Assembly: GCA_964478665.1 (NCBI GenBank)
Contig: CAYZNA010000013.1
Location: forward strand, 5,923 to 16,520
Reading direction: 5' to 3'
From: an uncultured Anaerolineales bacterium
GTDB taxonomy: Bacteria; Chloroflexota; Anaerolineae; Anaerolineales; CAYZNA01
DNA: 10,598 bases
In this document: positions 1-10,598 of the stretch, in pieces
Numbering within the stretch: position 1 is the first letter of the stretch
Layout: each line of letters starts with the position of its first letter
Position numbers and translations under genes: made by a program
Notes under the pieces: model-generated
The model's input: the letters and a program-made list of their open reading frames with translations, nothing else
The model's database searches: none
What the model was told of the DNA's origin: nothing

Positions 1-807
1 GAATACGCCGAGAATTACCTGAAAAATCCGCACGACTATTGGAAATACATGGGGTTGTTCAGCGGCTACATCGAAAGCATCGTCAATGCCGGCAAGCCGG
101 TGATCGCCCGGCTGAACGGGATGGCGGTCGGCGGCGGGAACGAGTCGCAACTGGCCTGCGATCTGTCCATCATCGCCGAGCATGCCTATATCAAGCAGGT
201 GGGCACCAGCGTGGGCAGCGTGGCCGCCGGAGGTTCCACCCAGTGGCTGCCACTTTTCGTGGGAGACCGGCGGGCGCGCTACATCCTGATGACCAACCGC
301 CCCATCCTGCCCTACCAGGCGCTGGAATGGGGACTGGTCAACCAGGTTGCGCCCTCGGTAACAAAAGACGGCGAGTTCATCACCCACGCCACGCCGGAGC
401 AGATCAAGAAAGCGCAAAAGGGCGATGAAGGCTACGCCATCAGCCTGGCGAAGCTGGACGAGGCCGTGCAGGCCCTGGCCGGCGAACTGATTGACAAGTT
501 CCCGGAGTGTATGCGCTACACCAAGCAGCAGGTTAACTTTTTCAAGGACCTCGCCTGGCACAGCACCATCGGCCACGCCCGCGACTGGCTTTCGATCCAC
601 TTCGCCACGTGGGAGCCGCTGGAGGGCATGAGCGCCTTCGTGGAGAAGCGGCGGGCCAACCCCACCCGCCTGCGCGAGCTGGCCGCTGCCGGCAAGTCAT
701 CGGAGTTTCCGTGGGGGCCGTACAGCCAGGAGTGCCCGAGTTGCGGTGCGAAGAGCCTGCCCGGTGAGTTCCAGTTCTGCGGCCAGTGCGGAGCAAAGTT
801 GGGATGA
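1..807 (+). CDS. Crotonase-fold (enoyl-CoA hydratase/isomerase superfamily) C-C bond hydrolase, MenB/BadI/Oah(BamA)-like. 5'-truncated at the window edge. Carries a C-terminal zinc-ribbon extension.
   Basis: Frame 1 is open from nt 1 (EYAENYLKNPHDYWKYMGLF...), so the ATG at 49 is internal. The crotonase oxyanion-hole motif is present (ARLNGMAVGGGNESQLACDLSIIAE). The segment MSAFVEKRRANP matches the canonical C-terminal end of MenB-type enzymes (cf. ...EGRNAFNQKRQPDF in MenB, from memory). The GLVNQV motif resembles the MenB GLVNTV. About 45 further residues follow, ending ECPSCGAKSLPGEFQFCGQCGAKLG. Stop is TGA at 805-807. GC3 is high. Confidence 0.85.
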   Translation, partial: EYAENYLKNPHDYWKYMGLFSGYIESIVNAGKPVIARLNGMAVGGGNESQLACDLSIIAEHAYIKQVGTSVGSVAAGGSTQWLPLFVGDRRARYILMTNRPILPYQALEWGLVNQVAPSVTKDGEFITHATPEQIKKAQKGDEGYAISLAKLDEAVQALAGELIDKFPECMRYTKQQVNFFKDLAWHSTIGHARDWLSIHFATWEPLEGMSAFVEKRRANPTRLRELAAAGKSSEFPWGPYSQECPSCGAKSLPGEFQFCGQCGAKLG

Positions 808-873
808 TTCGTGGGGTGCGAGGCGCGCGCTTTTGCGGCGCACGCCTCGCACCCCACGCCAGAGGAGGAAACA

Positions 874-2040
874 ATGAGCGTGGAAACATTCCCCGAATGG
901 CGCGACCAGCCGCTGGATGAGATGCTCTACCAGGTGCGGGAAATGCTGGAAGACACCACCTTCCCCACCGTGCAGCGCTGGCGAGCGGCCGGCGGCAAGG
1001 TGGTCGGGCACTTCCAGGTTTACTTCCCGGAAGAGATCGTGCATGCGGCCGGCCTGTTGCCCTTCAAAGTGCGTGGTGCGCAGGTTGAAGCCATGCGGGC
1101 CGACTCGCGCTTCGGCTCGTACCTGTGCTCCATTCTCAAAACCTCGCTGGAGTTGGCGCTGAGCGACCGGGTAAAGATGGAGATGTTTGTCACCCACCCG
1201 ATCTGCGACGCCGCCCGCAATCTGGGCGCGGTGTGGGGCCGCAACTTCCCCTATCCCTGCCAGATCCTGTACCTGCCGCAAAACGCCAATTCCAGCCACG
1301 CCGTCACCTACCTGCGCGGCGAATATGACCGGCTGCGGCGGGGCGTGGAAACCATCGTCGGGCGGCCGGTCTCCGATGATGACCTGCGTTCTTCGTTGGG
1401 GGTGTACAACCAGAACCGGGCGCTGCTGCGCGAGCTGTACGACATCAAACGCGCCGAGCCGTGGCTGGTCACGGCCGATGAAGCCTACGTGCTGACCGCC
1501 ATCGGCGGCGTGCTCCCACGCGAGGAGCACAACCAGCTGCTGCAGGCGGCGCTGCCCGGGTTGCGCGCCCGCGACACCAGGCCGCAGGACAAGGTGCGGG
1601 TGGTGTTCGAGGGCGGCTTCTGCGAGCAGCCGCCGCTGGACCTGATCCGCGCGGTGGGGCGCTCGTGCTACGTGGTGGACGACGACCTGATGATCGGCCT
1701 GCGCTGGATTCTGGAGGACGTGGCGCTGGACGGCGACCCGCTCCACAACCTGGCCCACGCCTATCTGGAACAATCCAGCTATAGCCCGGTGCAGCACGAC
1801 CTGCGCAAGCCCAAGGAGAAGATGCTGCTCGAGCGCATCGAGTCGTCCGGGGCGCAGGCGGCCATCATCACCGCGGCCAAGTTGTGCGAGCCGGGGCTGG
1901 AAGAGCAGGTGGCCTACACGCGCGCGCTGGACGAAGAGGGCGTGCCCTACTTCGTCAGCGAGTTCGAGGAGAACATGACCAGCTTCGACCACCTCGAGAT
2001 CCAGTTGGAGACGTTTGTGGAGAACATCTTGTTTGTCTAG
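874..2040 (+). CDS. Class I benzoyl-CoA reductase / 2-hydroxyacyl-CoA dehydratase family, HgdAB-like Fe-S subunit. The smaller of the two; BcrC/BzdN/BadD-like by size and order.
   Basis: ATG at 874 is preceded by AGGAGG (863-868) with a 5-nt spacer. The ORF-track start at 811 is a GTG upstream of the Shine-Dalgarno site. The 388-aa product has conserved Cys-containing segments (HPICDAARNLG, YPCQILY, FEGGFCEQPP, RSCYVVDDD, AAKLCEPG) typical of HGD-D/BcrB-BcrC family subunits. It sits immediately upstream of a paralogous subunit and two activase-type ATPases. Confidence 0.85.
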   Translation: MSVETFPEWRDQPLDEMLYQVREMLEDTTFPTVQRWRAAGGKVVGHFQVYFPEEIVHAAGLLPFKVRGAQVEAMRADSRFGSYLCSILKTSLELALSDRVKMEMFVTHPICDAARNLGAVWGRNFPYPCQILYLPQNANSSHAVTYLRGEYDRLRRGVETIVGRPVSDDDLRSSLGVYNQNRALLRELYDIKRAEPWLVTADEAYVLTAIGGVLPREEHNQLLQAALPGLRARDTRPQDKVRVVFEGGFCEQPPLDLIRAVGRSCYVVDDDLMIGLRWILEDVALDGDPLHNLAHAYLEQSSYSPVQHDLRKPKEKMLLERIESSGAQAAIITAAKLCEPGLEEQVAYTRALDEEGVPYFVSEFEENMTSFDHLEIQLETFVENILFV

Positions 2041-2103: not shown

Positions 2104-3402
2104 ATGACACAAACACAACTTACCGACGGGATCGTTGGGCGCGGCAACCGCGACGGGGCGCAACTGTTCCGCGACTGGTTCAGCGAGTTGACCCGGGTGG
2201 CGGAAGCCGGCGGCCAGGCGGCCTATGTTTTCGTGATGGGCAGCATGAACGAGGTGCTGAAGACCTTTGATATGCCGGTGGTCTTCCCCGAGATCAACTC
2301 GCTGCAAACCGCCGTTCGCCGCGTGGCCCACGAATACTTGAACGAGGCTGAGGACTACGGCTACTCCCCCGACATCTGCGGCTACGTGAAGGCAGATGTG
2401 GCCGTGCAGCTCCGCCAGGGCAAGCACCCGATGGGCCGCATCCCGAAGCCCAGCCTGGCCGTGCTGACCAACGCCTGCAATACCTACATCAAGTGGGCGG
2501 AGATCTGGGAGCGGATGTACCACATCCCCATCTTTACCCTGGACGTGCCCGGCACCCGCATGGCCGGCGGTCAGACCTGGGCCGGCAACGCGGACTTTGA
2601 GAACGACCGCGCCTACGTGGCCGCACAGCTCAAGGAATTGATCGGGGTGTGCGAGCAGGTCACCGGCAAGAAGTTTGACATTGATAAGTTGCGCGAAGTG
2701 CTGGGGCACGCCAACACCATGAGCCGGGGCTGGAAGCGCGCGCTGGATCTGAACCAGAGCCGGCCCTCGCTATTCAACGCCCTGACCGATGGCACAATTT
2801 ACCTGGGCGTAGCCAACGGCTTCCGCGGCACGCCGGCGGGCGCCAGGTACTTCGACGAACTTGTACAAGAGATGGAATACAAGGCGGCCCACGCCATCGG
2901 CACGCTGACCGACGAAAAGTACCGCCTGATCTTTGTGGGCGTGCCCTGCTACCCCATTTTTCGGCGCTTCAACGAACTGTTCACCGAATGGGGCGGCACG
3001 TTCGTCAACTCCACTTACCTCTGGTTCGCCGCTGGCGGCACCAACCTCGGTTTTGAATACGACGTGAATCGCCCCATGGGTAGTCTGGCGAAGGGCGTGC
3101 TGAGCAGTGTGCGCGATGCAATGGACAGCATGTTTTACCAGGACAGCATCCTGACGAAAATGGTGGACGATTACCACGTGTACGGGGTGGTATATCACCC
3201 GATCAAGAGCTGCCGCACGGTCTCAACCGGCCTGGCCGACAACCGGCGCGCCCTGATGGCCGCCCGCGACGTTCCCAGCCTGTTCATCGAGTCCGACATG
3301 ATGGATCGGCGGGTGGTCTCCGAGGCACAGCTCAAGAACCGGGCGGACGCGTTCTTTGAGGGGTTAGCCACGCGCAAGATGCTGGAGAAGCGCGGGGCGT
3401 GA
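2104..3402 (+). CDS. Class I benzoyl-CoA reductase / 2-hydroxyacyl-CoA dehydratase family, HgdAB-like subunit. The larger of the two; BcrB/BzdO/BadE-like by size and order.
   Basis: ATG at 2104 is preceded by aaGGAaaGGGAGcg. The 432-aa product has Cys-containing segments (DICGYVKAD, TNACNTYIKW, GVPCYPIF, IKSCRTVSTG) and overall resembles the HgdA/BcrB-type component. It follows the previous gene after a 63-nt gap and precedes the two ATPase genes. Confidence 0.85.
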   Translation: MTQTQLTDGIVGRGNRDGAQLFRDWFSELTRVAEAGGQAAYVFVMGSMNEVLKTFDMPVVFPEINSLQTAVRRVAHEYLNEAEDYGYSPDICGYVKADVAVQLRQGKHPMGRIPKPSLAVLTNACNTYIKWAEIWERMYHIPIFTLDVPGTRMAGGQTWAGNADFENDRAYVAAQLKELIGVCEQVTGKKFDIDKLREVLGHANTMSRGWKRALDLNQSRPSLFNALTDGTIYLGVANGFRGTPAGARYFDELVQEMEYKAAHAIGTLTDEKYRLIFVGVPCYPIFRRFNELFTEWGGTFVNSTYLWFAAGGTNLGFEYDVNRPMGSLAKGVLSSVRDAMDSMFYQDSILTKMVDDYHVYGVVYHPIKSCRTVSTGLADNRRALMAARDVPSLFIESDMMDRRVVSEAQLKNRADAFFEGLATRKMLEKRGA

Positions 3403-3461: not shown

Positions 3462-4277
3462 ATGGCATACGCAGCCGGAGTAGACGTAGGGTCCACCCAG
3501 ACCAAAGCGATTATCATCAACGAAAAGCAGCACATCGTGGGCCGGTCGCTGACCGACACCGGCGCCAACGTGGTCGCCGCTGCCCAAAAGGCCTACGAGC
3601 TGGCGCTGGCCGACGCCGGCCTGGAGGAGCGAGAGGTGGAATACGTGGTCGGCACCGGCTATGGCCGCTACCGCGTCACCTTTGGCAACACCCAGGTCAC
3701 CGAGATCAGTTGCCACGGGCGGGGGTCGGTACACATGTTCCCCGATACGCGCACGGTGGTGGACATGGGCGGGCAAGATACCAAAGCGATTCGGGTGAAC
3801 GCCCGCGGCGAAATCCTGGATGTCTGCATGAATGACAAGTGCGCCGCCGGGACCGGCCGCTTCCTGGGGGCGGCCTCGGACGCGCTGGACATCCCGCTCG
3901 GGGAGCTGGGAGCGGTGGCCCTGCGGGCCGAGCGCCCGGTGAGGATCAGCACCACCTGCACGGTGTTCGCCGAGTCGGAGGTGCTCTCCTGGCTGGGCAA
4001 GGGCAAGAAAATCGAAGACATCTTGCAGGGCGTGCACCAGTCCATCGCGCAGCGCTCTATCGGCCTGTTGCGCCGGGTGGGGATCGAGTCCCAGGTTACG
4101 TTTACCGGCGGCGTCGCCAGAAACATCGGCATGATCGCCGCGCTGAATCACGGCATGGGGTTGCAGGTGAACGTCAGCGAGGAATCGCACTATATGGGCG
4201 CGTTGGGGGCCGCCCTGTTTGCCCTCGATCACATCCTGGCCCGTCGCAGCCCGGCCGGCGCGCCTGCAGCAGCCTGA
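3462..4277 (+). CDS. BadF/BadG/BcrA/BcrD-family ATPase (HgdC-like electron-activating ATPase subunit), copy 1
   Basis: ATG at 3462 is preceded by AGGAGGG (3450-3456). The N-terminal ASKHA phosphate-1 motif is [11 protein letters not shown]. Two conserved Cys sit in [13 protein letters not shown] and [12 protein letters not shown], the positions that ligate the inter-subunit [4Fe-4S] cluster in HgdC-type ATPases. Length is 271 aa. Confidence 0.9.
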
Positions 4278-4319: not shown

Positions 4320-5162
4320 ATGTATACCACGGGAATTGACGTTGGATCAACCTACACCAAAGCGCTCGTCTTGAGTGAGGACAATCAAATCGTTGGCCGG
4401 GCGATCTCCAGCACCGGCTTCAAGCTGGCGGAGGTCGCCCGGCGGGTGTACGAGCAGGCGCTGGCGCAGGCTGGGTTAGATGCCAGCGACGTGGGCTATG
4501 TGGTCTCGACCGGCTTTGGCCGGCACATGGTCCCCTTCAGCGACGTGTCCGTGACCGACCTGACCGCCAGCGCGCGCGGCGCAGCCTTCCTCTTTCCCGA
4601 GACGCGCACCATTCTGGACGTGGGCGGGCAGACCATGAAGGCCAGCCGGCTGGATGGCCGGGCAAAGGTAAAATCGTTCCGGCTCAACGACAAGTGCGCC
4701 GCCGGCACCGGGGCTTTTCTGGAGAAGACCGCGCGCTATATGGGCTATTCGACCGAGGAGATCGGCCCGCTGGTAGCCACCTCCAAAGAAGTGGTGCCCA
4801 TCTCGGGCGTGTGCGCCGTGTTCGCCGAGTCGGAAGTGATCAACCACCTCTCGATGGGCAGCTCCCCCGCCGACATCATGCACGGGGCCATTGCCTCGCT
4901 GGTGGACCGCTCGGTGCAACTGATGAGGCGCGTGCAAATGGAGCCGGAGTTCACCCTGATCGGCGGCATTTTGCGCTTTGAGACCATGGCCCGCGTGGTG
5001 AGGCAGAACCTGAAGACCGAGGTAAACGTGCCGCAGGGCGACATGGTGCAGTTCACCTCCGCCCTGGGCGCAGCGATCCTGGGCCACCAGCGCCTGCGCA
5101 GGCTGGCCCCGTCGGGGGAGGGCAGCAAGACCGAAGGCGAGATGGCGGCGGTTGAGGCCTGA
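4320..5162 (+). CDS. BadF/BadG/BcrA/BcrD-family ATPase (HgdC-like), copy 2, a distinct paralog of copy 1
   Basis: ATG at 4320 is preceded by GGAGAGGGA (4302-4310). It has [24 protein letters not shown] and SGVCAVFAESEV, the same motif set as the upstream ATPase but clearly diverged. Length is 280 aa. Two different small ATPases in tandem fit the alpha/delta heterodimer of Bzd/Bad-type reductases. Confidence 0.9.
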   Translation: MYTTGIDVGSTYTKALVLSEDNQIVGRAISSTGFKLAEVARRVYEQALAQAGLDASDVGYVVSTGFGRHMVPFSDVSVTDLTASARGAAFLFPETRTILDVGGQTMKASRLDGRAKVKSFRLNDKCAAGTGAFLEKTARYMGYSTEEIGPLVATSKEVVPISGVCAVFAESEVINHLSMGSSPADIMHGAIASLVDRSVQLMRRVQMEPEFTLIGGILRFETMARVVRQNLKTEVNVPQGDMVQFTSALGAAILGHQRLRRLAPSGEGSKTEGEMAAVEA

Positions 5163-5240: not shown

Positions 5241-5543
5241 ATGACTGAAAGTGACGCCCGCCCAACTCCCGCTCTCGATTGGCTGGAAGCCTCCGCCCGC
5301 CGCGTGCTGACGGAGGACCAGCTTGCTCCCGATCCGGCCTTGCTGGCCGAGGGCTGGGAGCGCCGCTTTGTGGCCGACGCCCGGCGGGCGAAGGAAGCCA
5401 TTGAGCTGTACCAGCAACTGGGCTTTGAGGTACGGGCCGAGCCGCTGCGCCCTACCGATCTGGGCGACGATTGCGAAGACTGCAAGCTGGTCGTGGTCTT
5501 TCAGTTCCAGACCATCTATACCCGCCGGAAGCGCGAAGCGTGA
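5241..5543 (+). CDS. Small hypothetical protein (100 aa), no recognisable domain
   Basis: ATG at 5241 with GAGGA three nt upstream, which is a short spacer. Third-position GC is strongly biased as in neighbouring genes and there are no internal stops. It sits between the reductase and VOC genes on the same strand. The sequence (…EAIELYQQLGFEVRAEPLRP…DDCEDCKLVVVFQFQ…) is not recognised. Confidence 0.5.
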   Translation: MTESDARPTPALDWLEASARRVLTEDQLAPDPALLAEGWERRFVADARRAKEAIELYQQLGFEVRAEPLRPTDLGDDCEDCKLVVVFQFQTIYTRRKREA

Positions 5544-5570: not shown

Positions 5571-6026
5571 ATGGACTACATTCGCCGCATCCAGCGCGTC
5601 GCCCTCGCGGTAGAGGACCTTGACCAGGCGCAGGCTTTCTTTGAGAACTGGTTCGGGGCGCAGTTCCTGCCGGAGGAAAACATCAGCGATATGGGCATTC
5701 GCTACCGGCCGTTTAACGTGGGCGAGAGCATGATGGAACTGTTGCAGGCCACCCGCGAGGATAGCCCGGTAGCGCGATTCCTGCGGCAACGCGGCGGGCC
5801 GGGGGTGCACCACATCACCTTTGAGGTAGAAGACCTGGACGCCGCCATCGCCGAACTGGAGCGGCGCGGCGGGCGCATCGCATACCGTCATACTTACGCC
5901 CCCGGCGTCACGTTCGAGGGCAAGTACTGGCGGGAAGCCTTCATTCACCCGAGGGACGCCTTTGGCGTGCTGATCCACCTGGCGGAGACCAGGCCGGTAG
6001 ACCCCCGGCCGGACCCCAATCACTGA
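5571..6026 (+). CDS. VOC (glyoxalase/bleomycin-resistance/dioxygenase) superfamily protein, methylmalonyl-CoA-epimerase-like
   Basis: ATG at 5571 with AGGAA nine nt upstream. The 151-aa product has RVALAVEDLDQAQAFF near the N-terminus and GVHHITFEVEDLDAAIAELERRGG in the second half, the paired beta-alpha-beta-beta-beta module signature typical of methylmalonyl-CoA epimerase/glyoxalase-I-like proteins. Confidence 0.75.
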   Translation: MDYIRRIQRVALAVEDLDQAQAFFENWFGAQFLPEENISDMGIRYRPFNVGESMMELLQATREDSPVARFLRQRGGPGVHHITFEVEDLDAAIAELERRGGRIAYRHTYAPGVTFEGKYWREAFIHPRDAFGVLIHLAETRPVDPRPDPNH

Positions 6027-6052: not shown

Positions 6053-6601
6053 ATGAACACTACCGATCCCGTTGCCTTCTTGCTGTCCGAGCACCGCCGC
6101 ATCATGGCAGCGGTAGATGCAGTCCGGCGCGCCCTGCCCGATCTGCGCTCCCCGGAAGATTTCCGGCGCCACCTGCCGGCTTTGTTGGCCTTCGGCGATG
6201 CGCTGACCTACGACATTCCGGCCCACGCTGGCAAGGAAGACGACATCTTCTTCCCGCCCATCGAGGCCATCATTGGCCGTGAGGGCGGGCCGACCGGCGT
6301 GATGCGCGCAGAGCACAAAGAAATCCACGCCGCCGCGCTCAAGCTGAGTGAAGTGATCCGCGAGTTGAACACGGTGGAACACCCGGCCATCCTGGCCGGC
6401 ACGCAGGCCTACGAGGCGCAGATCCGGGCGGTGCAGGCCGGCGCGGGAGACCTGGCGGCCTTCGTGGCCCACACCCACGAACTGATAGACCTGCTGGACC
6501 GCCACTTTGGCAAGGAAGAGCAGGTGCTGTTTCCCATGTACAACCAACTGGTGGAACCATCGGTTCGCGCGGAGGTGGCCCGGCGCATGGCCGGGCGATA
6601 G
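6053..6601 (+). CDS. Hemerythrin (HHE cation-binding) domain protein
   Basis: It starts with LLSEHRRIMAAVDAV and has two HHE-type motifs: HAGKEDDIFFPPIE and HFGKEEQVLFPMY (H-x2-KEE-x2-LFP). Length is 182 aa. TAG stop at 6599-6601 is followed immediately by a GC hairpin. Confidence 0.75.
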   Translation: MNTTDPVAFLLSEHRRIMAAVDAVRRALPDLRSPEDFRRHLPALLAFGDALTYDIPAHAGKEDDIFFPPIEAIIGREGGPTGVMRAEHKEIHAAALKLSEVIRELNTVEHPAILAGTQAYEAQIRAVQAGAGDLAAFVAHTHELIDLLDRHFGKEEQVLFPMYNQLVEPSVRAEVARRMAGR

Positions 6602-6630: not shown

Positions 6631-7644
6631 TTACGTCTTCTTCTCCTCTTTCAAGGACAGCACGCGCGCCCAGCGATCCAGGGCAATGGCATAGGTCTTG
6701 TTGATGGGCAGGTGCGTGGCGCGCATCTCGTCCAGCAGATCCAGCTTCTTGTTGCCCACCGTCACCATGGCGCGCAGGTCCAGCCCGCCGTCGGCGCGGC
6801 GCGCCATGCTCAGCCAGGTCACTTTTGCCTCGCCGCCGTTCAGCAGTGCGTGCTTTGCCTCCTGCTTGCACAGGTCGTAAAACTGCGTCTGGCGGGTGAA
6901 GATGTAGGGCGGCGCGTGGTCATCTGCTGCGACGAAGTAAAAGCGAAGCCCCTGGCGCGCCGCGGCCTGCGCGGCGAGGACGTACCCCATCCAGTAGGCC
7001 ACGCCCAGGTAGACCTCCAGCACTTCTCTCATCCCGATCTCGACGACCGGCGCCGTGAATGGCAGGCCTAGCTGGGACGCCAGCTCGCGCAGCAGGCTCG
7101 GATAGCCCACCAGCGCCAGCGGGGCCAGCAGCCCGGCCACCACGCTGAAACTGATCGGGCTCCACGCGCGGCCGATCGCGCGCATTAGCCCGATGAGCGC
7201 GCGCGGCACGTCAGGCCCGTCCAGCCCGCGCGCAATGGCGCGCACGGCTTGCTGCACGCGTCGCGTCGCGCGCGCGCTCCACTCGTCAAACGCCGCCAGG
7301 AAGGCGAATATCAGCCCCAGGAAGGCAATCGCCAACCCGCCGCTTATCCCCCAGACCCCATCGGCCCGGACGAAGAACAGCAACCCCACGAACCAGCCGA
7401 GCAGCAGGGTCAGCGCGCCCGGCAGCAACCCGCGCAACTCGCCCATCAGCACCTCCGGGGTCAGCCGGTTCAGCACGCCCCTGTGCCACTCCTGCCACTG
7501 CCGGTTCTGCGAGTGACAGCGCACGCAGACGGTCTCGTTCTCCGGCAGCGGTTCGCGGCAGGCAATGCAGGCCACGCTGCGCGGCACGACCGGCGGCGTC
7601 TCAGGGGCAGCGGCCCCGGCGGTCTCAGCGGGCATCGTGGACAT
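6631..7644 (-). CDS. Polytopic membrane protein with N-terminal zinc ribbon (CxxC-x11-CxxC) and a ~100-aa C-terminal soluble domain. Function unknown.
   Basis: ATG at 7644 (MSTMPAET…) is preceded on the minus strand by GAGGAG with a 6-nt spacer. The ORF-track start at 7797 would overlap the upstream gene by about 170 nt. Zinc ribbon is CIACREPLPENETVCVRCHS. At least four hydrophobic helices follow (LLPGALTLLLGWFVGLLFFV, GISGGLAIAFLGLIFAFLAAF, VVAGLLAPLALVGY, VYLGVAYWMGYVLAA). The hydrophilic C-terminus ends KEEKKT. Confidence 0.65.
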   Translation of the reverse strand: MSTMPAETAGAAAPETPPVVPRSVACIACREPLPENETVCVRCHSQNRQWQEWHRGVLNRLTPEVLMGELRGLLPGALTLLLGWFVGLLFFVRADGVWGISGGLAIAFLGLIFAFLAAFDEWSARATRRVQQAVRAIARGLDGPDVPRALIGLMRAIGRAWSPISFSVVAGLLAPLALVGYPSLLRELASQLGLPFTAPVVEIGMREVLEVYLGVAYWMGYVLAAQAAARQGLRFYFVAADDHAPPYIFTRQTQFYDLCKQEAKHALLNGGEAKVTWLSMARRADGGLDLRAMVTVGNKKLDLLDEMRATHLPINKTYAIALDRWARVLSLKEEKKT

Positions 7645-8353
7645 CGGCAGGCTCCTCAACTCTAGTCCTGAAAAGTCGCAGCGCGTCGCCCGCGGCAGGC
7701 GCGTTGCCCGATCCGGGGGCCGGGGCCGCTGGCCGGGCGCCGGTTGCCAGTCCGGGCGCGGGAGCGCCTGTCGCGCCCGGCGCCCCGTGCTGGCCATCGG
7801 CCCAGTCGCGCAGCAGGGCGAGGCGACGCCACAGCCGGCTCAGGGTCGGGCTTCCGTCCAGATTGTGCAACAAGTCCAGCCCGGAGGTGCACACTCGAGA
7901 GACGCACAGCCAGTGGCTGGTCTGAGCGTAAGCAACCGCCAGCCCGCACAGGCTGGCGGCCTGCAGCGGGTCAGCGTGGAAAGAAGCGCGAAAGCTGCTG
8001 GCGCTCCGCTCGTAGGCGCGCACGGCCAGGTCTGACTTCTGCTCCACGCAATGGCAACCTCCGGCATACCCGTGGAGCATGCCCTGCACAACGGTCGGCA
8101 CCAGATGATCCACGCGGTTGCTGCGGACCGTCTCCATCGCCTGCAGCCCGTGCGTCACCCGAACAAGCGCGCCGGCCCAATCGCGCCGATTCCAATCCGT
8201 GCGGGTCTGCTCGACGTAGCGCACGAGCGCCGGCTCACCCTGCAACGCCCGCCGCACTTGCTCGCTGCAGTCCCACAGCAGCAGTTGGAGCGTGTCCACG
8301 ACCTCCACAGCGATGTCCGAGAGCACGAGCGGTTCACGCAGATCAGCAAGCAT
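7625..8353 (-). CDS. Hypothetical, predicted alpha-helical soluble protein with a Pro/Ala/Gly-rich low-complexity C-terminal tail
   Basis: ATG at 8353 (MLADLREPLVL…) is preceded on the minus strand by GGAGGA with an 8-nt spacer. The longer ORF-track start at 8473 would overlap the upstream gene's 3' end. The tail reads GAPGATGAPAPGLATGARPAAPAPGSGNAPAAG. It overlaps the downstream gene start by 20 nt (7625-7644). No recognisable domain. Confidence 0.55.
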   Translation of the reverse strand: MLADLREPLVLSDIAVEVVDTLQLLLWDCSEQVRRALQGEPALVRYVEQTRTDWNRRDWAGALVRVTHGLQAMETVRSNRVDHLVPTVVQGMLHGYAGGCHCVEQKSDLAVRAYERSASSFRASFHADPLQAASLCGLAVAYAQTSHWLCVSRVCTSGLDLLHNLDGSPTLSRLWRRLALLRDWADGQHGAPGATGAPAPGLATGARPAAPAPGSGNAPAAGDALRLFRTRVEEPADVHDAR

Positions 8354-8408
8354 GTCAGGTATCCTCCATAGATTCAGAGCGCCGTCAACCGAGCCTGGCT
8401 TTCCGGCC

Positions 8409-10598
8409 TCATGTCGTCTGCCCGGCGCCGGCGTCCTCGCCGGCCGGCGGCGGTTCGGCCGCCATCTCCCCACGCGCAGGCGCAGCGGGGAGGATCTGCT
8501 CTCTGGCGAGGAAGGCCGCCAGGGCCTCGATCTTTGAAAGGTCGCTGAAAGCGGCCAGGCGCACGAGCATCTCCATCAGCCCCTTGTCCTCAAGGATCTG
8601 CGGATCCGCCTGGCCCAGCACCGCAAGCAACTGCCGCAGGTACTCCACGCGCGCCAGCGCCTCGCCGCGGCCGGTGATAGCCTTCGCTTCGGCCTTGCCA
8701 CGCGCACGATCCACGTCCGCGTGAGCCATCAATTGGGCCAGTTCGGCCTGCATCCCCGCGCGGATGCGCTCTGCCTCCATTTCGGCCTCCACCTCCGCAC
8801 CTCTTGCTTGTTTGAGCAAGCCGGCGACATCGCGGGCAGCTTCGAGCTCGCGCTTGCGGTCGGCCAGTCTGACCGCTTCCTTCGCCGACTCTTTCCAGGC
8901 GTCGGTCCTGGCGTGTTCCACTTCCGCCCAGCGGCGCCATTGAATATCCCAGATTTGCAGCAGCCGCTCACTCACATCGCGGGGCATGCGCAGTTCGTCG
9001 AGCGTGACGCGCACTACCTCCACCCCCCAGCGCTGCGCCAGCCGGTCCAGCCGGCGTTGAAGTTCGAACTGCAGCGGTGCGCGCGGGGAAAGCTGCCCGT
9101 CCATCACCGTGCTGCGCGGGTCGAAGATCAGCTCCAGATAGCGGGCGGAGATCGCCTCGCGCAGGGCGGCGCGGGCCGCCTGCTCGGTCTGCTGGCGCCA
9201 GTCGGCCGCGTTCAACGCGGCCCGGCGCAGCACGTCATCCTCCAATACGTAGCGGCCCTCGGTTACCAGTGCGGCCTCGTCCTGCATGATGCGGTATTGG
9301 ATGGAGAACTTCACCTTCAGCGGCACGCCCTCGCGGGAGTAGACCGTTTCCTCGCTCTGGTCAATGGCCTGCGTTTGCAGGCGCAGATCGAACACTGCCC
9401 GCAGCGCCTCACCGAACTGGGTGACCACCATGCCCGGCCCGGATACCCGCGAGACTTGCCCAAAGCGCTCGAACACGCCGGCGCTGGCTCCGGTAAGCAG
9501 CACCAGCCCCGGTCCCGGCAGGCGCAGCGGCCCGCTGCCCTGCAAGGCGCCGTCCACCACCTGCTGAAAGGCGCTAAACCACGGGTTGCGTGGCCACACT
9601 GCGGCCATCATGGCGCCAAACAGGCGGCGCCGGCCCTCCGCCCGATCCACCGCGTGCCAGTCGGCCAGCACGCCGGCGGCCAGCCACCACGCGGCCAGGG
9701 CGGAGCCGGCCAGCGCGGTCAGCGCCAGCAGCGCCGCCAGCACAGCGCGGCGGGTGCGCGCGGGGCGCGCCGTTTGCGGGAGCGGAATCGCGCCCACTTC
9801 CGCCACGTAGGCCCCCTCCTTCGTGGCCACCAGCAGGCGGCCGCGCGCCGCGTCCACAATCAGCAGCCTGCCATCCAGGCCCAGCGCCAGAGAAGTGGGG
9901 GTAAACGGCCCGCGCAGATCGCTGATCTGACGCAGATACCTGCCGTCGGCGCCGAACACTGCCACCCGGCGGTGTCCGCTGTCGGCCACAAAGGCCGTCC
10001 CCTGCCAGTCCACCGCCACATCCGTGGGATACGATAGCTGGGCCTCCGGCGGGGCATCTTTGAGCGGCAGCGTGGTGGTGAGGGTGCGCGTGACCGGCTC
10101 GAACACCCAGATGACATTGCTGAGTGGGTCAGCCAGATGGAGTTGGCCGCTTTCGGGGTAAATGCCCAGCCCGCCGGGGGAAACGAAGACGTGGGGGGTG
10201 TCGTCGCCCCTGTCACCCAGGCCGGTCACAGCCCCATCGGGCTTGATGATCTGCACCCGCCGGTTCTCGGCGTCGGCGACGTAAAGGTTGCCTTGCCTGT
10301 CTTCCAGCGCGTCAGTGGGTGAGCGGAACTGCTTCAGGGCGGCGCCAACCTCACCCAGCGGCTCAATTGTGGCGCCGTCGTCGAACAGACGAAACAGGCG
10401 GTGCTGTCCCGGGTCGGTGACAATCAGGTGCTCGTGTGCCTGCCAGTCGTCGCCGTCGCGCTTCGGGGCAAGGAACAGGCCGTCCGGCTGCACCAGCTCA
10501 CCCCGCATCCACTCGTTCACTGGTTGCAGTGTCCTGTCGAGCACCACTACCCGATGCGCCAGCAGGTCCCCCACGTACACCTTCTCATCGGAGGCGGC
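8409..10598 (-). CDS. Fusion protein: NHL-repeat beta-propeller + single TM helix + SPFH/band-7 (flotillin/stomatin/prohibitin-like) domain with E/A-rich coiled coil. 5' end outside the window.
   Basis: The frame stays open beyond 10598 (…AASDEK VYVGDLLAHR), so the gene is 5'-partial. NHL blades: GNLYVADAENRRVQIIKPDG, TAFVADSGHRRVAVFGADGRYL, LLIVDAARGRLLVATKEG, LHLADPLSNVIWVF. TM is RRAVLAALLALTALAGSALAAWWLAAGVLA (about 9665-9752). SPFH core is VFERFGQVSRVSGPGMVV…LKVKFSIQYRI. A flotillin-like E/A/R-rich coiled coil follows (RKRELEAARDVAGLLKQARGAEVEAEMEAERIRAGMQAELAQL). Stop TGA (revcomp) at 8409-8411. Confidence 0.85.
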   Translation of the reverse strand, partial: AASDEKVYVGDLLAHRVVVLDRTLQPVNEWMRGELVQPDGLFLAPKRDGDDWQAHEHLIVTDPGQHRLFRLFDDGATIEPLGEVGAALKQFRSPTDALEDRQGNLYVADAENRRVQIIKPDGAVTGLGDRGDDTPHVFVSPGGLGIYPESGQLHLADPLSNVIWVFEPVTRTLTTTLPLKDAPPEAQLSYPTDVAVDWQGTAFVADSGHRRVAVFGADGRYLRQISDLRGPFTPTSLALGLDGRLLIVDAARGRLLVATKEGAYVAEVGAIPLPQTARPARTRRAVLAALLALTALAGSALAAWWLAAGVLADWHAVDRAEGRRRLFGAMMAAVWPRNPWFSAFQQVVDGALQGSGPLRLPGPGLVLLTGASAGVFERFGQVSRVSGPGMVVTQFGEALRAVFDLRLQTQAIDQSEETVYSREGVPLKVKFSIQYRIMQDEAALVTEGRYVLEDDVLRRAALNAADWRQQTEQAARAALREAISARYLELIFDPRSTVMDGQLSPRAPLQFELQRRLDRLAQRWGVEVVRVTLDELRMPRDVSERLLQIWDIQWRRWAEVEHARTDAWKESAKEAVRLADRKRELEAARDVAGLLKQARGAEVEAEMEAERIRAGMQAELAQLMAHADVDRARGKAEAKAITGRGEALARVEYLRQLLAVLGQADPQILEDKGLMEMLVRLAAFSDLSKIEALAAFLAREQILPAAPARGEMAAEPPPAGEDAGAGQTT

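What the first reader, a model, noticed from the sequence alone, without database searches (positions are those of the whole stretch)
670..807. MenB/BadI/Oah-like crotonase ends in an extra ~45-residue tail with a CPxCG…CGxCG zinc ribbon
The crotonase fold appears to end at MSAFVEKRRANP, which aligns by eye to the extreme C-terminus of MenB-type enzymes. The reading frame continues for about 45 residues and closes with ECPSCGAKSLPGEFQFCGQCGAKLG, a textbook four-Cys zinc ribbon. In MenB/BadI-type enzymes the C-terminal helices swap between subunits to complete the neighbouring active site, so an appended metal-binding knuckle is structurally unusual there. It could mediate docking to the adjacent reductase or a nucleic-acid/protein partner, or add redox/metal sensing. 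Relative to MenB there is also a ~30-aa insertion (SVTKDGEFITHATPEQIKKAQKGDEGYAISLAKLDEA), which makes the enzyme Oah-sized rather than BadI-sized. Gene context suggests it is the ring-opening beta-ketoacyl-CoA hydrolase of the pathway fed by the downstream reductase.
Basis: partly seen in the sequence, partly recalled or inferred. Interest (0 to 1): 0.55.

Follow-up and report, generated by a model that had tools for sequence, protein, structure and literature searches.

The report
Zinc-ribbon tail on Oah-like ring hydrolase
The four-cysteine tail is real and is the invariant hallmark of a large, uncharacterised family of Oah-like ring-opening crotonases that sit in benzoyl-CoA-type gene clusters of uncultivated Chloroflexota, Actinomycetota, other bacteria and some archaea; what the tail does is untested.

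Summary
Window 1-807 (+) encodes the last 268 residues of a crotonase. It ends in a 47-residue tail whose last 24 residues form C-x2-C-G-x9-F-C-G-x-C-G.

The tail is not a frameshift. All 120 best homologues and all 78 complete genomic copies, down to 55% identity, carry it. The four Cys are invariant and the knuckle spacing is fixed at 11 residues.

A bona fide Oah (630 bits on TIGR03200), four Oah-like representatives and MenB lack the ribbon. Oah does share the first roughly 15 tail residues and a longer version of the internal insertion. Full-length family members score only 208-235 bits on TIGR03200 (cut-off 464), so this is a distinct Oah-like family.

In 30 of 40 well-flanked genomes the gene lies with BcrCBAD-like genes. 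Dch-like, Had-like and indolepyruvate:ferredoxin oxidoreductase genes are often nearby. This supports the ring-hydrolase role.

More distant ribbon-bearing crotonases sit in clusters with no class I reductase. The ribbon is also not electropositive. I therefore favour an intrinsic structural Zn(Cys)4 cap on the subunit-crossing C-terminal arm over docking to the reductase or nucleic-acid binding. That mechanism is inferred, not shown.

Verdict: a new variant of a known kind, of moderate interest.

The parts
1..804 (+). 3' part (268 codons) of a crotonase-superfamily gene cut by the window start. It belongs to an Oah-like family with a C-terminal zinc ribbon.
   Evidence: Translation. PF00378 ECH_1 E=5.5e-26. 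Best NCBIfam hit is TIGR03200 dearomat_oah at 143.7 bits, below the cut-off. Full-length homologues of 345-367 aa are 72-82% identical.
355..465 (+). Internal insertion (SVTKDGEFITH...AKLDEA) relative to MenB/BadI-type crotonases. It is a shorter version of the Oah-specific insertion.
   Evidence: There is a gap against MenB in the alignment. The segment aligns with the longer P0162/P0180/P0230 Oah insertion, and is absent from the 317-320 aa archaeal and other members that still carry the ribbon.
664..732 (+). C-terminal arm/linker: LR-x2-AA-x-G followed by the conserved SSEF-x-WG-x-Y motif.
   Evidence: The LR..AA.G part aligns with Oah 'IDF..LR..LA.G'. S233, S234, E235, F236, W238, G239 and Y241 are 96-100% conserved in 120 sequences.
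733..804 (+). Four-Cys zinc ribbon: C-P-S-C-G-x9-F-C-G-Q-C-G-A-K-L-G.
   Evidence: The Cys are 100% conserved, and P254, F257, G261, G264 and L267 are at least 96% conserved. The spacer is 11 residues in 192/193 sequences. The AF2 model of homologue P0004 gives two beta-hairpins with pLDDT about 90. Sub-threshold hits to DUF7577, DZR and Zn_ribbon_3.
811..857 (+). Intergenic GC-rich hairpin between the crotonase stop codon and the RBS of the bcrC-like gene.
   Evidence: dG -47.8 kcal/mol, z-score -5.8, 0 of 200 shuffles fold as well. No T-run follows. A hairpin of different sequence lies at the same place in L005.
874..2040 (+). [quoted passage not shown]
   Evidence: PF06050 E=4.7e-60. TIGR02263 benz_CoA_red_C scores 274.9 bits, below the 421 cut-off.
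2104..3402 (+). BcrB-like subunit (HGD-D family).
   Evidence: PF06050 E=1.9e-59. TIGR02260 scores 207.4 bits against a 486 cut-off.
3462..4277 (+). BcrA/BzdQ-like ATPase subunit.
   Evidence: PF01869 E=2.8e-62. TIGR00241 scores 247 bits, above its cut-off.
4320..5162 (+). BcrD-like ATPase subunit.
   Evidence: PF01869 E=2.1e-54. TIGR00241 scores 213 bits, above its cut-off.
5241..5543 (+). Conserved small ORF of unknown function that follows the bcrD-like gene in this reductase clade.
   Evidence: No Pfam or NCBIfam hit. Homologues found in 31 related loci; in the loci checked in the table they lie just downstream of the bcrD-like gene. Shared motif: GW.RRF...Y...G.EV...C..C...YV..YTR.

Best explanation
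The gene encodes the ring-opening beta-oxoacyl-CoA hydrolase (Oah-type: hydration plus C-C hydrolysis of 6-oxocyclohex-1-ene-1-carbonyl-CoA or a close analogue). It belongs to a divergent benzoyl-CoA-type pathway whose ATP-dependent BcrCBAD-like reductase is encoded immediately downstream.

The protein is a member of a distinct, widespread and uncharacterised sister family of Oah. In that family the C-terminal arm is lengthened by a conserved SSEF-x-WG-x-Y linker and closed by a 24-residue Cys4 ribbon.

I propose that the ribbon binds one structural Zn2+ and forms a rigid knob. In MenB/BadI-type hexamers the C-terminal arm crosses to a neighbouring subunit and helps close that subunit's active site. 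The knob would pin this arm onto the neighbour, stabilising the oligomer and the active-site lid. On this view it is an intrinsic part of the enzyme, not an adaptor for the reductase.

Shown: the motif, its conservation, its absence from Oah and MenB, the gene context, and a confidently predicted ribbon fold.

Inferred: metal identity, substrate, and the latch mechanism.
For: Identity of the enzyme:
- The best family hit is TIGR03200 Oah, ahead of BadI and MenB.
- Like Oah, it has the GGG-x-E glutamate and GS-[AV]-[AP]-x-GG where MenB has GGGH-V and GSFDGG. The catalytic roles of these residues come from my knowledge of the ECH/MenB literature, not from a test here.
- It shares the Oah insertion and the Oah C-terminal LR..A.G extension.
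- BcrCBAD-like genes lie in 30 of 40 genome loci with at least 6.5 kb on both sides. They lie directly downstream in 19 loci and upstream on the same strand in 19.
- Neighbours best hit Dch (TIGR03189), Had (TIGR03201) and indolepyruvate:ferredoxin oxidoreductase alpha/beta. No second Oah-like gene is seen in those clusters.
- A PaaX-type regulator lies directly upstream in L004 and L005.

Ribbon as an intrinsic structural module:
- The four Cys are invariant, the spacing is fixed, and the linker is highly conserved across bacterial phyla and Thermoplasmata archaea.
- AF2 gives pLDDT about 90 for the ribbon.
- The ribbon is retained in crotonases whose clusters lack any class I reductase.
- Net charge is about -0.5.
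- The tail starts about 7 residues before the point where MenB chains end.
Against: - No multimer model or coordinates were available. The contact between the ribbon and a neighbouring subunit is pure inference.
- The monomer AF2 model folds the C-terminal helices back on their own subunit (rmsd about 16 A to MenB but about 3.3 A to self-associating crotonases). The arm's path is therefore unknown.
- Canonical Oah, MenB and BadI function without any ribbon, so a latch is not required by the fold.
- All pathway proteins score below their NCBIfam equivalog cut-offs, so the true substrate may not be the benzoyl-CoA-derived intermediate.
- In this window Dch-like and Had-like genes are not present downstream; upstream is unseen.
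- The window protein has Phe at the position where 71% of the family and MenB have Tyr.
Confidence: 0.5

Rival explanations
1. The ribbon is a protein-protein 'staple' that docks the hydrolase to another pathway enzyme to channel labile alicyclic CoA intermediates. Candidate partners are the Had-like dehydrogenase that makes its substrate, the Dch-like hydratase, a thiolase, or the BcrCBAD-like reductase. This would be analogous to the zinc-ribbon-containing DUF35 domain at the C-terminus of the hydratase ChsH2, which recruits Ltp2.
For: - The linker and ribbon surface residues (LP..F, SSEF.WG.Y) are more conserved than a mere stabiliser might need.
- ZR-crotonase genes are followed at once by a Zn-ADH (Had-like) gene in the distant families P0130 and P0127, with overlapping stop and start in L087.
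- Had-like genes occur in 18 of 40 well-flanked loci.
- The DUF35 'molecular staple' precedent in acyl-CoA metabolism is described in PMC10398937.
Against: - No single partner gene co-occurs in all contexts. P0135, P0141 and P0174 have no Zn-ADH and no class I reductase nearby.
- 10 of 40 well-flanked loci have no BCR-like gene.
- There is no OB-fold as in DUF35. Canonical Oah works with Had and BCR without a ribbon.
Confidence: 0.25
2. The four Cys bind iron (rubredoxin-like) or form a redox- or O2-sensitive metal site that switches the hydrolase off when the oxygen-labile reductase cannot work.
For: - CxxCG...CxxCG knuckles are also the rubredoxin signature (my own knowledge).
- The pathway is anaerobic and oxygen-sensitive.
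- A hemerythrin gene follows the cluster in the window and in L005 and L055.
Against: - The 11-residue spacing and the FCxxCG..L pattern match the DZR/zinc-ribbon Pfam models, not rubredoxin models.
- The reaction needs no electrons.
- The ribbon also occurs in a P450-containing, presumably aerobic, actinobacterial cluster.
Confidence: 0.08
3. The ribbon binds nucleic acid and lets the enzyme autoregulate its own operon or mRNA, as the N-terminal Cys4 ribbon of the crotonase-fold carboxyltransferase beta subunit (AccD) does.
For: - AccD is the only crotonase-fold zinc-ribbon precedent I found. Its ribbon binds mRNA/DNA and is needed for catalysis (PMC2831308).
- A strong hairpin lies just 3' of the stop codon.
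Against: - The ribbon is neutral to acidic (mean net charge -0.5, mode -1), whereas the AccD zinc domain is electropositive.
- Dedicated PaaX-type regulators lie next to the gene in relatives.
- The intergenic hairpin sequence is not conserved between the window and L005.
Confidence: 0.05
4. The tail is an artefact: a frameshift, sequencing error or read-through of a lost stop codon.
For: None found. The only oddity is that the database copy of this protein (P0001, 252 aa) starts at an internal Met.
Against: - The same tail occurs in frame in 120/120 homologues and in every complete copy in 80 genomes from several phyla.
- GC3 is maintained through the tail.
Confidence: 0.01

Closest known systems
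[quoted passage not shown]
   Same: It is the best-scoring family. The two share a crotonase core with the GGG-x-E glutamate and GS-x-x-x-GG, and an internal insertion beginning P-[SA]-[VL]-K-x-DG-x-F. They share a C-terminal extension LR..A.G beyond the MenB end. Both are encoded next to class I reductase, Dch-like and Had-like genes.
   Different: Identity is only 33-39%, and scores are 208-235 bits against the 464 cut-off. The insertion is about 20 residues shorter, or absent in some members. Oah ends without any Cys, whereas this family adds SSEF.WG.Y plus a Cys4 ribbon.
MenB (1,4-dihydroxy-2-naphthoyl-CoA synthase) and BadI (2-ketocyclohexanecarboxyl-CoA hydrolase)
   Same: MenB is the closest solved structure (2iex E=1e-34 by sequence; Foldseek E about 5e-16). 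The EG-x-x-AF-x-EKR C-terminal helix motif is the same.
   Different: MenB and BadI have no insertion, no tail and no ribbon. The MenB GSFD aspartate and GGGH-V are replaced by GSVA and GGGNE. Scores of 141-168 bits are below the cut-offs of 343-468.
AccD, acetyl-CoA carboxylase carboxyltransferase beta subunit
   Same: A crotonase-fold CoA-thioester enzyme carrying a Cys4 zinc ribbon that is needed for full activity (PMC2831308).
   Different: The AccD ribbon is N-terminal, electropositive and binds mRNA/DNA. Here the ribbon is C-terminal and neutral to acidic. There is no sequence relationship beyond the superfamily fold.
DUF35 (PF01796) zinc-ribbon/OB-fold scaffolds, e.g. the C-terminus of the hydratase ChsH2 binding Ltp2
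   Same: A zinc-ribbon-containing module appended to the C-terminus of an enoyl-CoA hydratase in a ring/side-chain degradation pathway, acting as a 'molecular staple' (PMC10398937).
   Different: The ChsH2 hydratase is MaoC/hot-dog type, not a crotonase. DUF35 has an OB-fold domain that is absent here. No DUF35 Pfam hit was found.
Pfam short zinc ribbons: DUF7577 (PF24463), DZR (PF12773), Zn_ribbon_3 (PF13248)
   Same: The CPxCG-x(9)-FCxxCG-x-L pattern and length are the same. Weak hits fall exactly on residues 242-267.
   Different: All scores are below the gathering thresholds. Those families are defined on other proteins and carry no functional assignment.

Membership tests
Crotonase / enoyl-CoA hydratase superfamily (Pfam PF00378 ECH_1) | Score at or above the gathering threshold (27 bits) on the ECH_1 model | tested here: met
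   91.9 bits, E=5.5e-26 for the window fragment. Foldseek and phmmer hit MenB and ECH structures.
Oah / BamA equivalog (NCBIfam TIGR03200 dearomat_oah) | Whole-protein score at or above the curated cut-off of 464.45 bits | tested here: not met
   The window fragment scores 143.7 bits. Full-length homologues P0004, P0002, P0009 and P0038 score 208-235 bits. The control P0162 scores 630 bits.
Oah / BamA equivalog (NCBIfam TIGR03200 dearomat_oah) | Oah-specific internal insertion and C-terminal extension relative to BadI/MenB | tested here: inconclusive
   A homologous but roughly 20-residue shorter insertion and the LR..A.G extension are present in the window protein. The insertion is missing in the 317-320 aa family members.
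Oah / BamA equivalog (NCBIfam TIGR03200 dearomat_oah) | Encoded with dienoyl-CoA hydratase (Dch), Had dehydrogenase and a dearomatising benzoyl-CoA reductase | tested here: met
   BcrCBAD-like genes lie directly downstream in the window. Among 40 well-flanked relatives, 30 have BCR-like, 18 Had-like and 16 Dch-like genes. The partners are themselves below their equivalog cut-offs.
Oah / BamA equivalog (NCBIfam TIGR03200 dearomat_oah) | Catalyses hydration and hydrolytic ring cleavage of 6-oxocyclohex-1-ene-1-carbonyl-CoA to 3-hydroxypimelyl-CoA | not testable with these tools
   Needs an enzyme assay.
BadI (TIGR03210) / MenB (TIGR01929, NF005637) | Score at or above the curated cut-off (467.6 / 342.7 / 380 bits) | tested here: not met
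   141-168 bits for full-length homologues.
BadI (TIGR03210) / MenB (TIGR01929, NF005637) | Active-site Asp in the G-S-F/V-D motif (role known from the MenB literature; my own knowledge) | tested here: not met
   The family has GSVAAGG where MenB 2iex and 2uzf have GSFDGG/GSFDAG.
Zinc ribbon (Pfam DUF7577 PF24463, DZR PF12773, Zn_ribbon_3 PF13248, Zn_Ribbon_1 PF13240) | Score at or above the gathering threshold (25-28 bits) | tested here: not met
   22.2, 20.6, 17.0 and 17.3 bits on residues 242-267. Some homologues carry precomputed PF24463 or PF13240 hits.
Zinc ribbon (generic Cys4 two-knuckle fold) | Two CxxC knuckles on two beta-hairpins, with conserved Cys | tested here: met
   C-x2-C-x11-C-x2-C, with the Cys 100% conserved. 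AF2 predicts strands at 318-321 and 328-331 with pLDDT about 90.
Zinc ribbon (generic Cys4 two-knuckle fold) | Binds one Zn2+ | not testable with these tools
   Needs ICP-MS or X-ray fluorescence on purified protein.
Class I benzoyl-CoA reductase BcrCBAD (TIGR02263/02260/02259/02261), for the downstream genes | Scores at or above the curated cut-offs | tested here: not met
   274.9/421, 207.4/487, 217.1/578 and 141.3/313 bits. The gene order C-B-A-D and two distinct ATPase subunits are as in Thauera (gene order read from the sequence; the Thauera comparison is from my own knowledge).

The most novel reading that the evidence does not exclude
The Cys4 ribbon plus the SSEF-x-WG-x-Y linker is a dedicated docking or switch module. 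It may assemble a Had-Oah (or Oah-thiolase/reductase) channelling complex, or make the ring-cleaving step metal- or redox-gated. Either would be a previously unrecognised way of organising anaerobic and aerobic alicyclic CoA-ester degradation in several crotonase subfamilies, across bacteria and archaea.
Probability: 0.2. Interest if true: 0.6.

Novelty: new variant of a known kind. Interest (0 to 1): 0.42.

Why it matters
bamA/oah is widely used as a marker gene for anaerobic aromatic degradation. This ribbon-bearing sister family fails the curated Oah model (208-235 against 464 bits). NCBI and JGI annotations mostly call its members 'enoyl-CoA hydratase' or 'hypothetical protein'.

The family appears to fill the Oah slot in BcrCBAD-type clusters of abundant uncultivated Anaerolineae and Ardenticatenales, Acidimicrobiia-like Actinomycetota, Gemmatimonadota, and Thermoplasmata archaea. 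Recognising it, and its easily scored C-x2-C-G-x9-F-C-G-x-C-G signature, would improve estimates of who degrades aromatics anoxically.

Structurally, a metal-binding knob on the subunit-swapping C-terminus of a MenB-type crotonase has not been described in the literature I could search. It offers a clean test case (Cys-to-Ser variants, tail deletion, hexamer structure) of how crotonase C-terminal arms control active-site closure or complex formation.

Tried and rejected
- Recovering the missing 5' end. The look-up of encoding contigs with the exact database copy (P0001) found nothing on record. The genome-contig scan found no identical locus; the best was 79% (L005). The N-terminus was therefore inferred from homologues only.
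- AFDB50 fold search. This library was not available.
The latch and docking hypotheses could not be tested structurally.
- Rfam scan of the window found no family.
- Literature searches on Oah with zinc, on crotonase or enoyl-CoA hydratase with zinc ribbon, and on Chloroflexi BCR with oah found no description of this tail. They returned only the AccD and DUF35 analogies and genome-based reports of a benzoyl-CoA pathway in Chloroflexi.
- Frameshift or artefact: rejected.
- 'Normal part of Oah': rejected for the ribbon, accepted for the first roughly 15 tail residues.
- 'Reductase-specific docking': down-weighted by the contexts of distant ribbon-bearing crotonases.
- A rough NJ tree puts the window's family in one clade, separate from the Oah clade. 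Other ribbon-bearing lineages are scattered among ribbon-less and truncated sequences. I did not draw conclusions on single versus multiple origin.
- I ran no further search on the tail alone, because the top hits would simply be the same family.
Full report
**1. What is in the sequence**

Frame 1 of window 1-807 (+) is open from the first base. It encodes 268 residues that end ...EGMSAFVEKRRANPTRLRELAAAGKSSEFPWGPYSQECPSCGAKSLPGEFQFCGQCGAKLG*.
- The gene is cut by the window start. Aligned to full-length homologues of 345-367 aa, about 77 N-terminal residues are missing.
- The four cysteines are residues 245, 248, 260 and 263 (nt 733-789). The stop codon is at 805-807.
- GC3 is 0.85 in the core and 0.81 in the tail, so the same coding frame runs through.
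- Pfam finds ECH_1 (E=5.5e-26). Four short zinc-ribbon models (DUF7577, DZR, Zn_ribbon_3, Zn_Ribbon_1) hit exactly residues 242-267, all below their gathering scores.
- Against solved structures the best matches are MenB enzymes. The family motif EG-M-x-AF-VEKR-x-x-x-Y aligns to the MenB C-terminal helix and stops about 7 residues before the end of the MenB chain. There is an internal gap in MenB where the window has SVTKDGEFITH...AKLDEA.

**2. It is not an accident of this gene**

- A search of 5.8 billion proteins gave 5314 hits. The 120 best (72-82% identical, covering 100% of the query) all carry the tail.
- In an alignment of these sequences the four Cys are 100% conserved. So are E235, G239, P254 and G264. 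S233, S234, F236, W238, Y241, F257, G261 and L267 are 96-99% conserved.
- A scan of one genome per species found 80 loci. They come from Chloroflexota (Anaerolineales, Ardenticatenaceae, Promineifilaceae), Actinomycetota, Gemmatimonadales, Acidobacteriota, Planctomycetota, Eisenbacteria, Neomarinimicrobiota, and Thermoplasmata/Methanomassiliicoccales archaea.
- Every copy not truncated by a contig end has the ribbon, down to 55% identity.
- The knuckle spacing is 11 residues in 192 of 193 distinct sequences.
- A frameshift or read-through artefact is excluded.

**3. Relation to Oah, BadI and MenB**

- NCBIfam ranks TIGR03200 (Oah) first, then BadI and MenB. Full-length family members reach only 208-235 bits against a cut-off of 464.
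- In an exhaustive search of 50%-identity representatives, P0162 is a bona fide Oah (630 bits). P0164, P0180, P0230 and P0152 are Oah-like (281-444 bits). None of them has a C-terminal Cys motif.
- The alignment gives three results:
  - (a) The window's insertion is homologous to the Oah-specific insertion but shorter (P-S-V-x-K-DG-E-F versus P-A-L-K-I-DG-Q-F). It is absent from the 317-320 aa members that still carry the ribbon.
  - (b) The first part of the 'extra' tail (x-LR-x2-AA-x-G) corresponds to Oah's own extension (IDF-x2-LR-x2-LA-x-G).
  - (c) Only SSEF-x-WG-x-Y plus the ribbon, about 30 residues, is new.
- The family and Oah share GGG-x-E and GS-[AV]-[AP]-x-GG, where MenB has GGGH-V and GSFDGG.
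- From my knowledge of the crotonase literature, that Glu corresponds to the first catalytic Glu of enoyl-CoA hydratase, and the MenB Asp is catalytic in MenB/BadI. If so, the family looks Oah-like (hydratase plus hydrolase) rather than BadI-like. This residue assignment was not tested here.
- The window protein has Phe201 where 71% of the family and MenB have Tyr.

**4. Gene context**

- In the window the crotonase gene is followed, after a 66-nt spacer, by bcrC-, bcrB-, bcrA- and bcrD-like genes. These are two HGD-D and two BcrAD_BadFG proteins. The catalytic subunits best hit the Thauera-type benzoyl-CoA reductase subunits C and B, and the ATPases best hit the generic acyl-CoA dehydratase activase model, with BcrA and BcrD next. 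All BCR equivalog scores are below their cut-offs.
- Among the 40 genome loci with at least 6.5 kb on both sides:
  - 30 have BCR-like genes;
  - 18 have a Had-like Zn-dependent alcohol dehydrogenase;
  - 16 have a Dch-like crotonase;
  - 15 have an indolepyruvate:ferredoxin oxidoreductase;
  - 15 have an amidohydrolase_2.
- bcrC is directly downstream in 19 loci (the window's arrangement), and bcrCBAD is upstream on the same strand in 19.
- The Dch-like and Had-like neighbours have TIGR03189 and TIGR03201 as their best or second-best NCBIfam hit, again sub-threshold.
- No other Oah-like gene is seen in these clusters, so the ribbon-bearing crotonase occupies the Oah slot.
- A PaaX-type regulator lies directly upstream in L004 and in L005, the closest relative at 79%. 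L005 also has a molybdopterin oxidoreductase with an Fe-S subunit and an IOR-family 2-oxoacid oxidoreductase upstream. These resemble the anaerobic phenylacetate-to-benzoyl-CoA feeder enzymes; this is an inference.
- A class I benzoyl-CoA pathway has been reported from Chloroflexi single-cell genomes without mention of this feature (PMC5736913).

**5. What the ribbon is for**

- An AlphaFold2 model of the 347-aa homologue P0004 (119-sequence alignment, mean pLDDT 79) predicts two short beta-hairpins for the ribbon with pLDDT about 90. The preceding C-terminal helices are less confident (61-76), as expected for elements that swap between subunits.
- Foldseek finds MenB and other crotonases. No solved structure covers the ribbon, and no Oah structure exists in the PDB copy.
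- The ribbon also occurs on more distant MenB/BadI/DpgD-like crotonases at 32-50% identity (P0122, P0127-P0130, P0132, P0135, P0141, P0174). Their neighbourhoods differ:
  - P0135: an ADP-forming CoA ligase;
  - P0141: ECH, BKACE, CoA-transferase and ferredoxin;
  - P0130: Zn-ADH, ECH, a metallo-beta-lactamase-fold protein (MBL) and a short-chain dehydrogenase (SDR), with an AMP-ligase;
  - P0127: an AFOR-family oxidoreductase gene (the Pfam family of class II BamB; not tested further) plus Zn-ADH, SDR, ECH and thiolase;
  - P0174: a P450, ferredoxin, thiolase and acyl-CoA dehydrogenase cluster from a deposited genome.
- The ribbon therefore follows this branch of ring- or beta-keto-cleaving crotonases, not the class I reductase. 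This weakens 'docking to the adjacent reductase'.
- Its net charge averages -0.5. The electropositive, RNA-binding N-terminal ribbon of the crotonase-fold AccD subunit is different (PMC2831308), so nucleic-acid binding is unlikely.
- The most economical reading is a structural Zn(Cys)4 knob. It would terminate and pin the extended C-terminal arm, which in MenB-type hexamers crosses to another subunit (established knowledge), and so stabilise the oligomer and the active-site lid.
- The strong conservation of the linker and ribbon surface, and the tight coupling to a Had-like gene in two distant families, keep a 'molecular staple' role alive. That role would be analogous to DUF35 in ChsH2-Ltp2 (PMC10398937).
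- None of these mechanisms is demonstrated.

**6. Verdict**

- The assignment as the ring-opening hydrolase of a BcrCBAD-fed pathway is well supported by context, but it fails formal Oah equivalog membership.
- The ribbon is a conserved, undescribed hallmark of a large Oah-like sister family and of some neighbouring crotonase lineages.
- I rate it a new variant of a known kind, of moderate interest. It is useful for annotation of anaerobic aromatic degraders and gives a tractable structure-function question.

**7. Other things seen**

- A very stable hairpin lies right after the stop codon (dG -47.8 kcal/mol, z-score -5.8), with a positional counterpart in L005.
- A conserved 100-aa ORF with a C-x2-C motif follows bcrD in 31 loci and has no family assignment.
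- A hemerythrin and a VOC/methylmalonyl-CoA-epimerase-like gene lie downstream.
- On the minus strand there is a membrane-looking protein with its own N-terminal CxxC-x11-CxxC ribbon, and an NHL-repeat/SPFH protein.

Noticed in passing
window 811-857 (+), between the crotonase stop (805-807) and the bcrC-like start (874): A near-perfect GC-rich stem-loop (15 bp plus 5 bp; dG -47.8 kcal/mol, z -5.8, 0 of 200 shuffles as stable). It has no T-run and is followed by AGGAGG and ATG. The closest relative L005 has a hairpin of different sequence at the same position (10817-10845). It may be an intra-operon mRNA stability or processing element, or an attenuator. There is no Rfam match.
   Followed up: partly
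window 5241-5543 (+): A 100-aa ORF directly after the bcrD-like gene with no Pfam or NCBIfam hit. Homologues are found in 31 related loci; in the loci checked they lie just downstream of the bcrD-like gene. The conserved motif is GW.RRF..D..R..E...Y...G.EV...C..C.....C..YV..YTR. The window copy lacks the third Cys. It may be an unrecognised small subunit or partner of this reductase clade.
   Followed up: partly
window 6053-6601 (+); also L005 15387-15929 and L055 from about 13534: A hemerythrin-domain protein lies downstream of the oxygen-sensitive reductase genes in the window and in two related loci. It may act in O2 sensing or protection.
   Followed up: no
window 5571-6026 (+): A VOC/glyoxalase-fold protein. 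Its best hit is methylmalonyl-CoA epimerase (TIGR03081, 100 bits against a 115 cut-off). It is not conserved at this position in most related loci.
   Followed up: no
window 6631-7797 (-): A 388-aa ORF with its own N-terminal CIAC-x11-CVRC ribbon (weak DZR hits) followed by hydrophobic stretches. It is a second, unrelated short zinc ribbon in the same window.
   Followed up: no
window 8409-10580 (-): A 723-aa protein combining NHL repeats/beta-propeller with an SPFH/Band 7 domain. The overlapping ORF 7625-8473 (-) has only a weak TPR hit and may or may not be real.
   Followed up: no
L005 736-9697 and L004 9112-10020: A PaaX-family regulator lies directly upstream of the ribbon-bearing crotonase in two relatives. 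L005 additionally has a molybdopterin oxidoreductase, a 4Fe-4S protein and an IOR-family (TPP plus POR/DUF6537) oxidoreductase. This is reminiscent of the anaerobic phenylacetate to phenylglyoxylate to benzoyl-CoA route.
   Followed up: partly
window 601-603 (residue F201): The window protein has Phe where 71% of the family and MenB have Tyr (the MenB tyrosine in LLFYTTEE). Either this Tyr is not catalytic in this family, or the window enzyme differs subtly.
   Followed up: no
database entry P0001 (252 aa) versus window 49-807: The public copy of this protein starts at an internal Met (window nt 49) although the frame is open to nt 1. The source contig probably begins near the window start, or the gene was mis-started. 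The exact-sequence look-up found no contig on record.
   Followed up: partly
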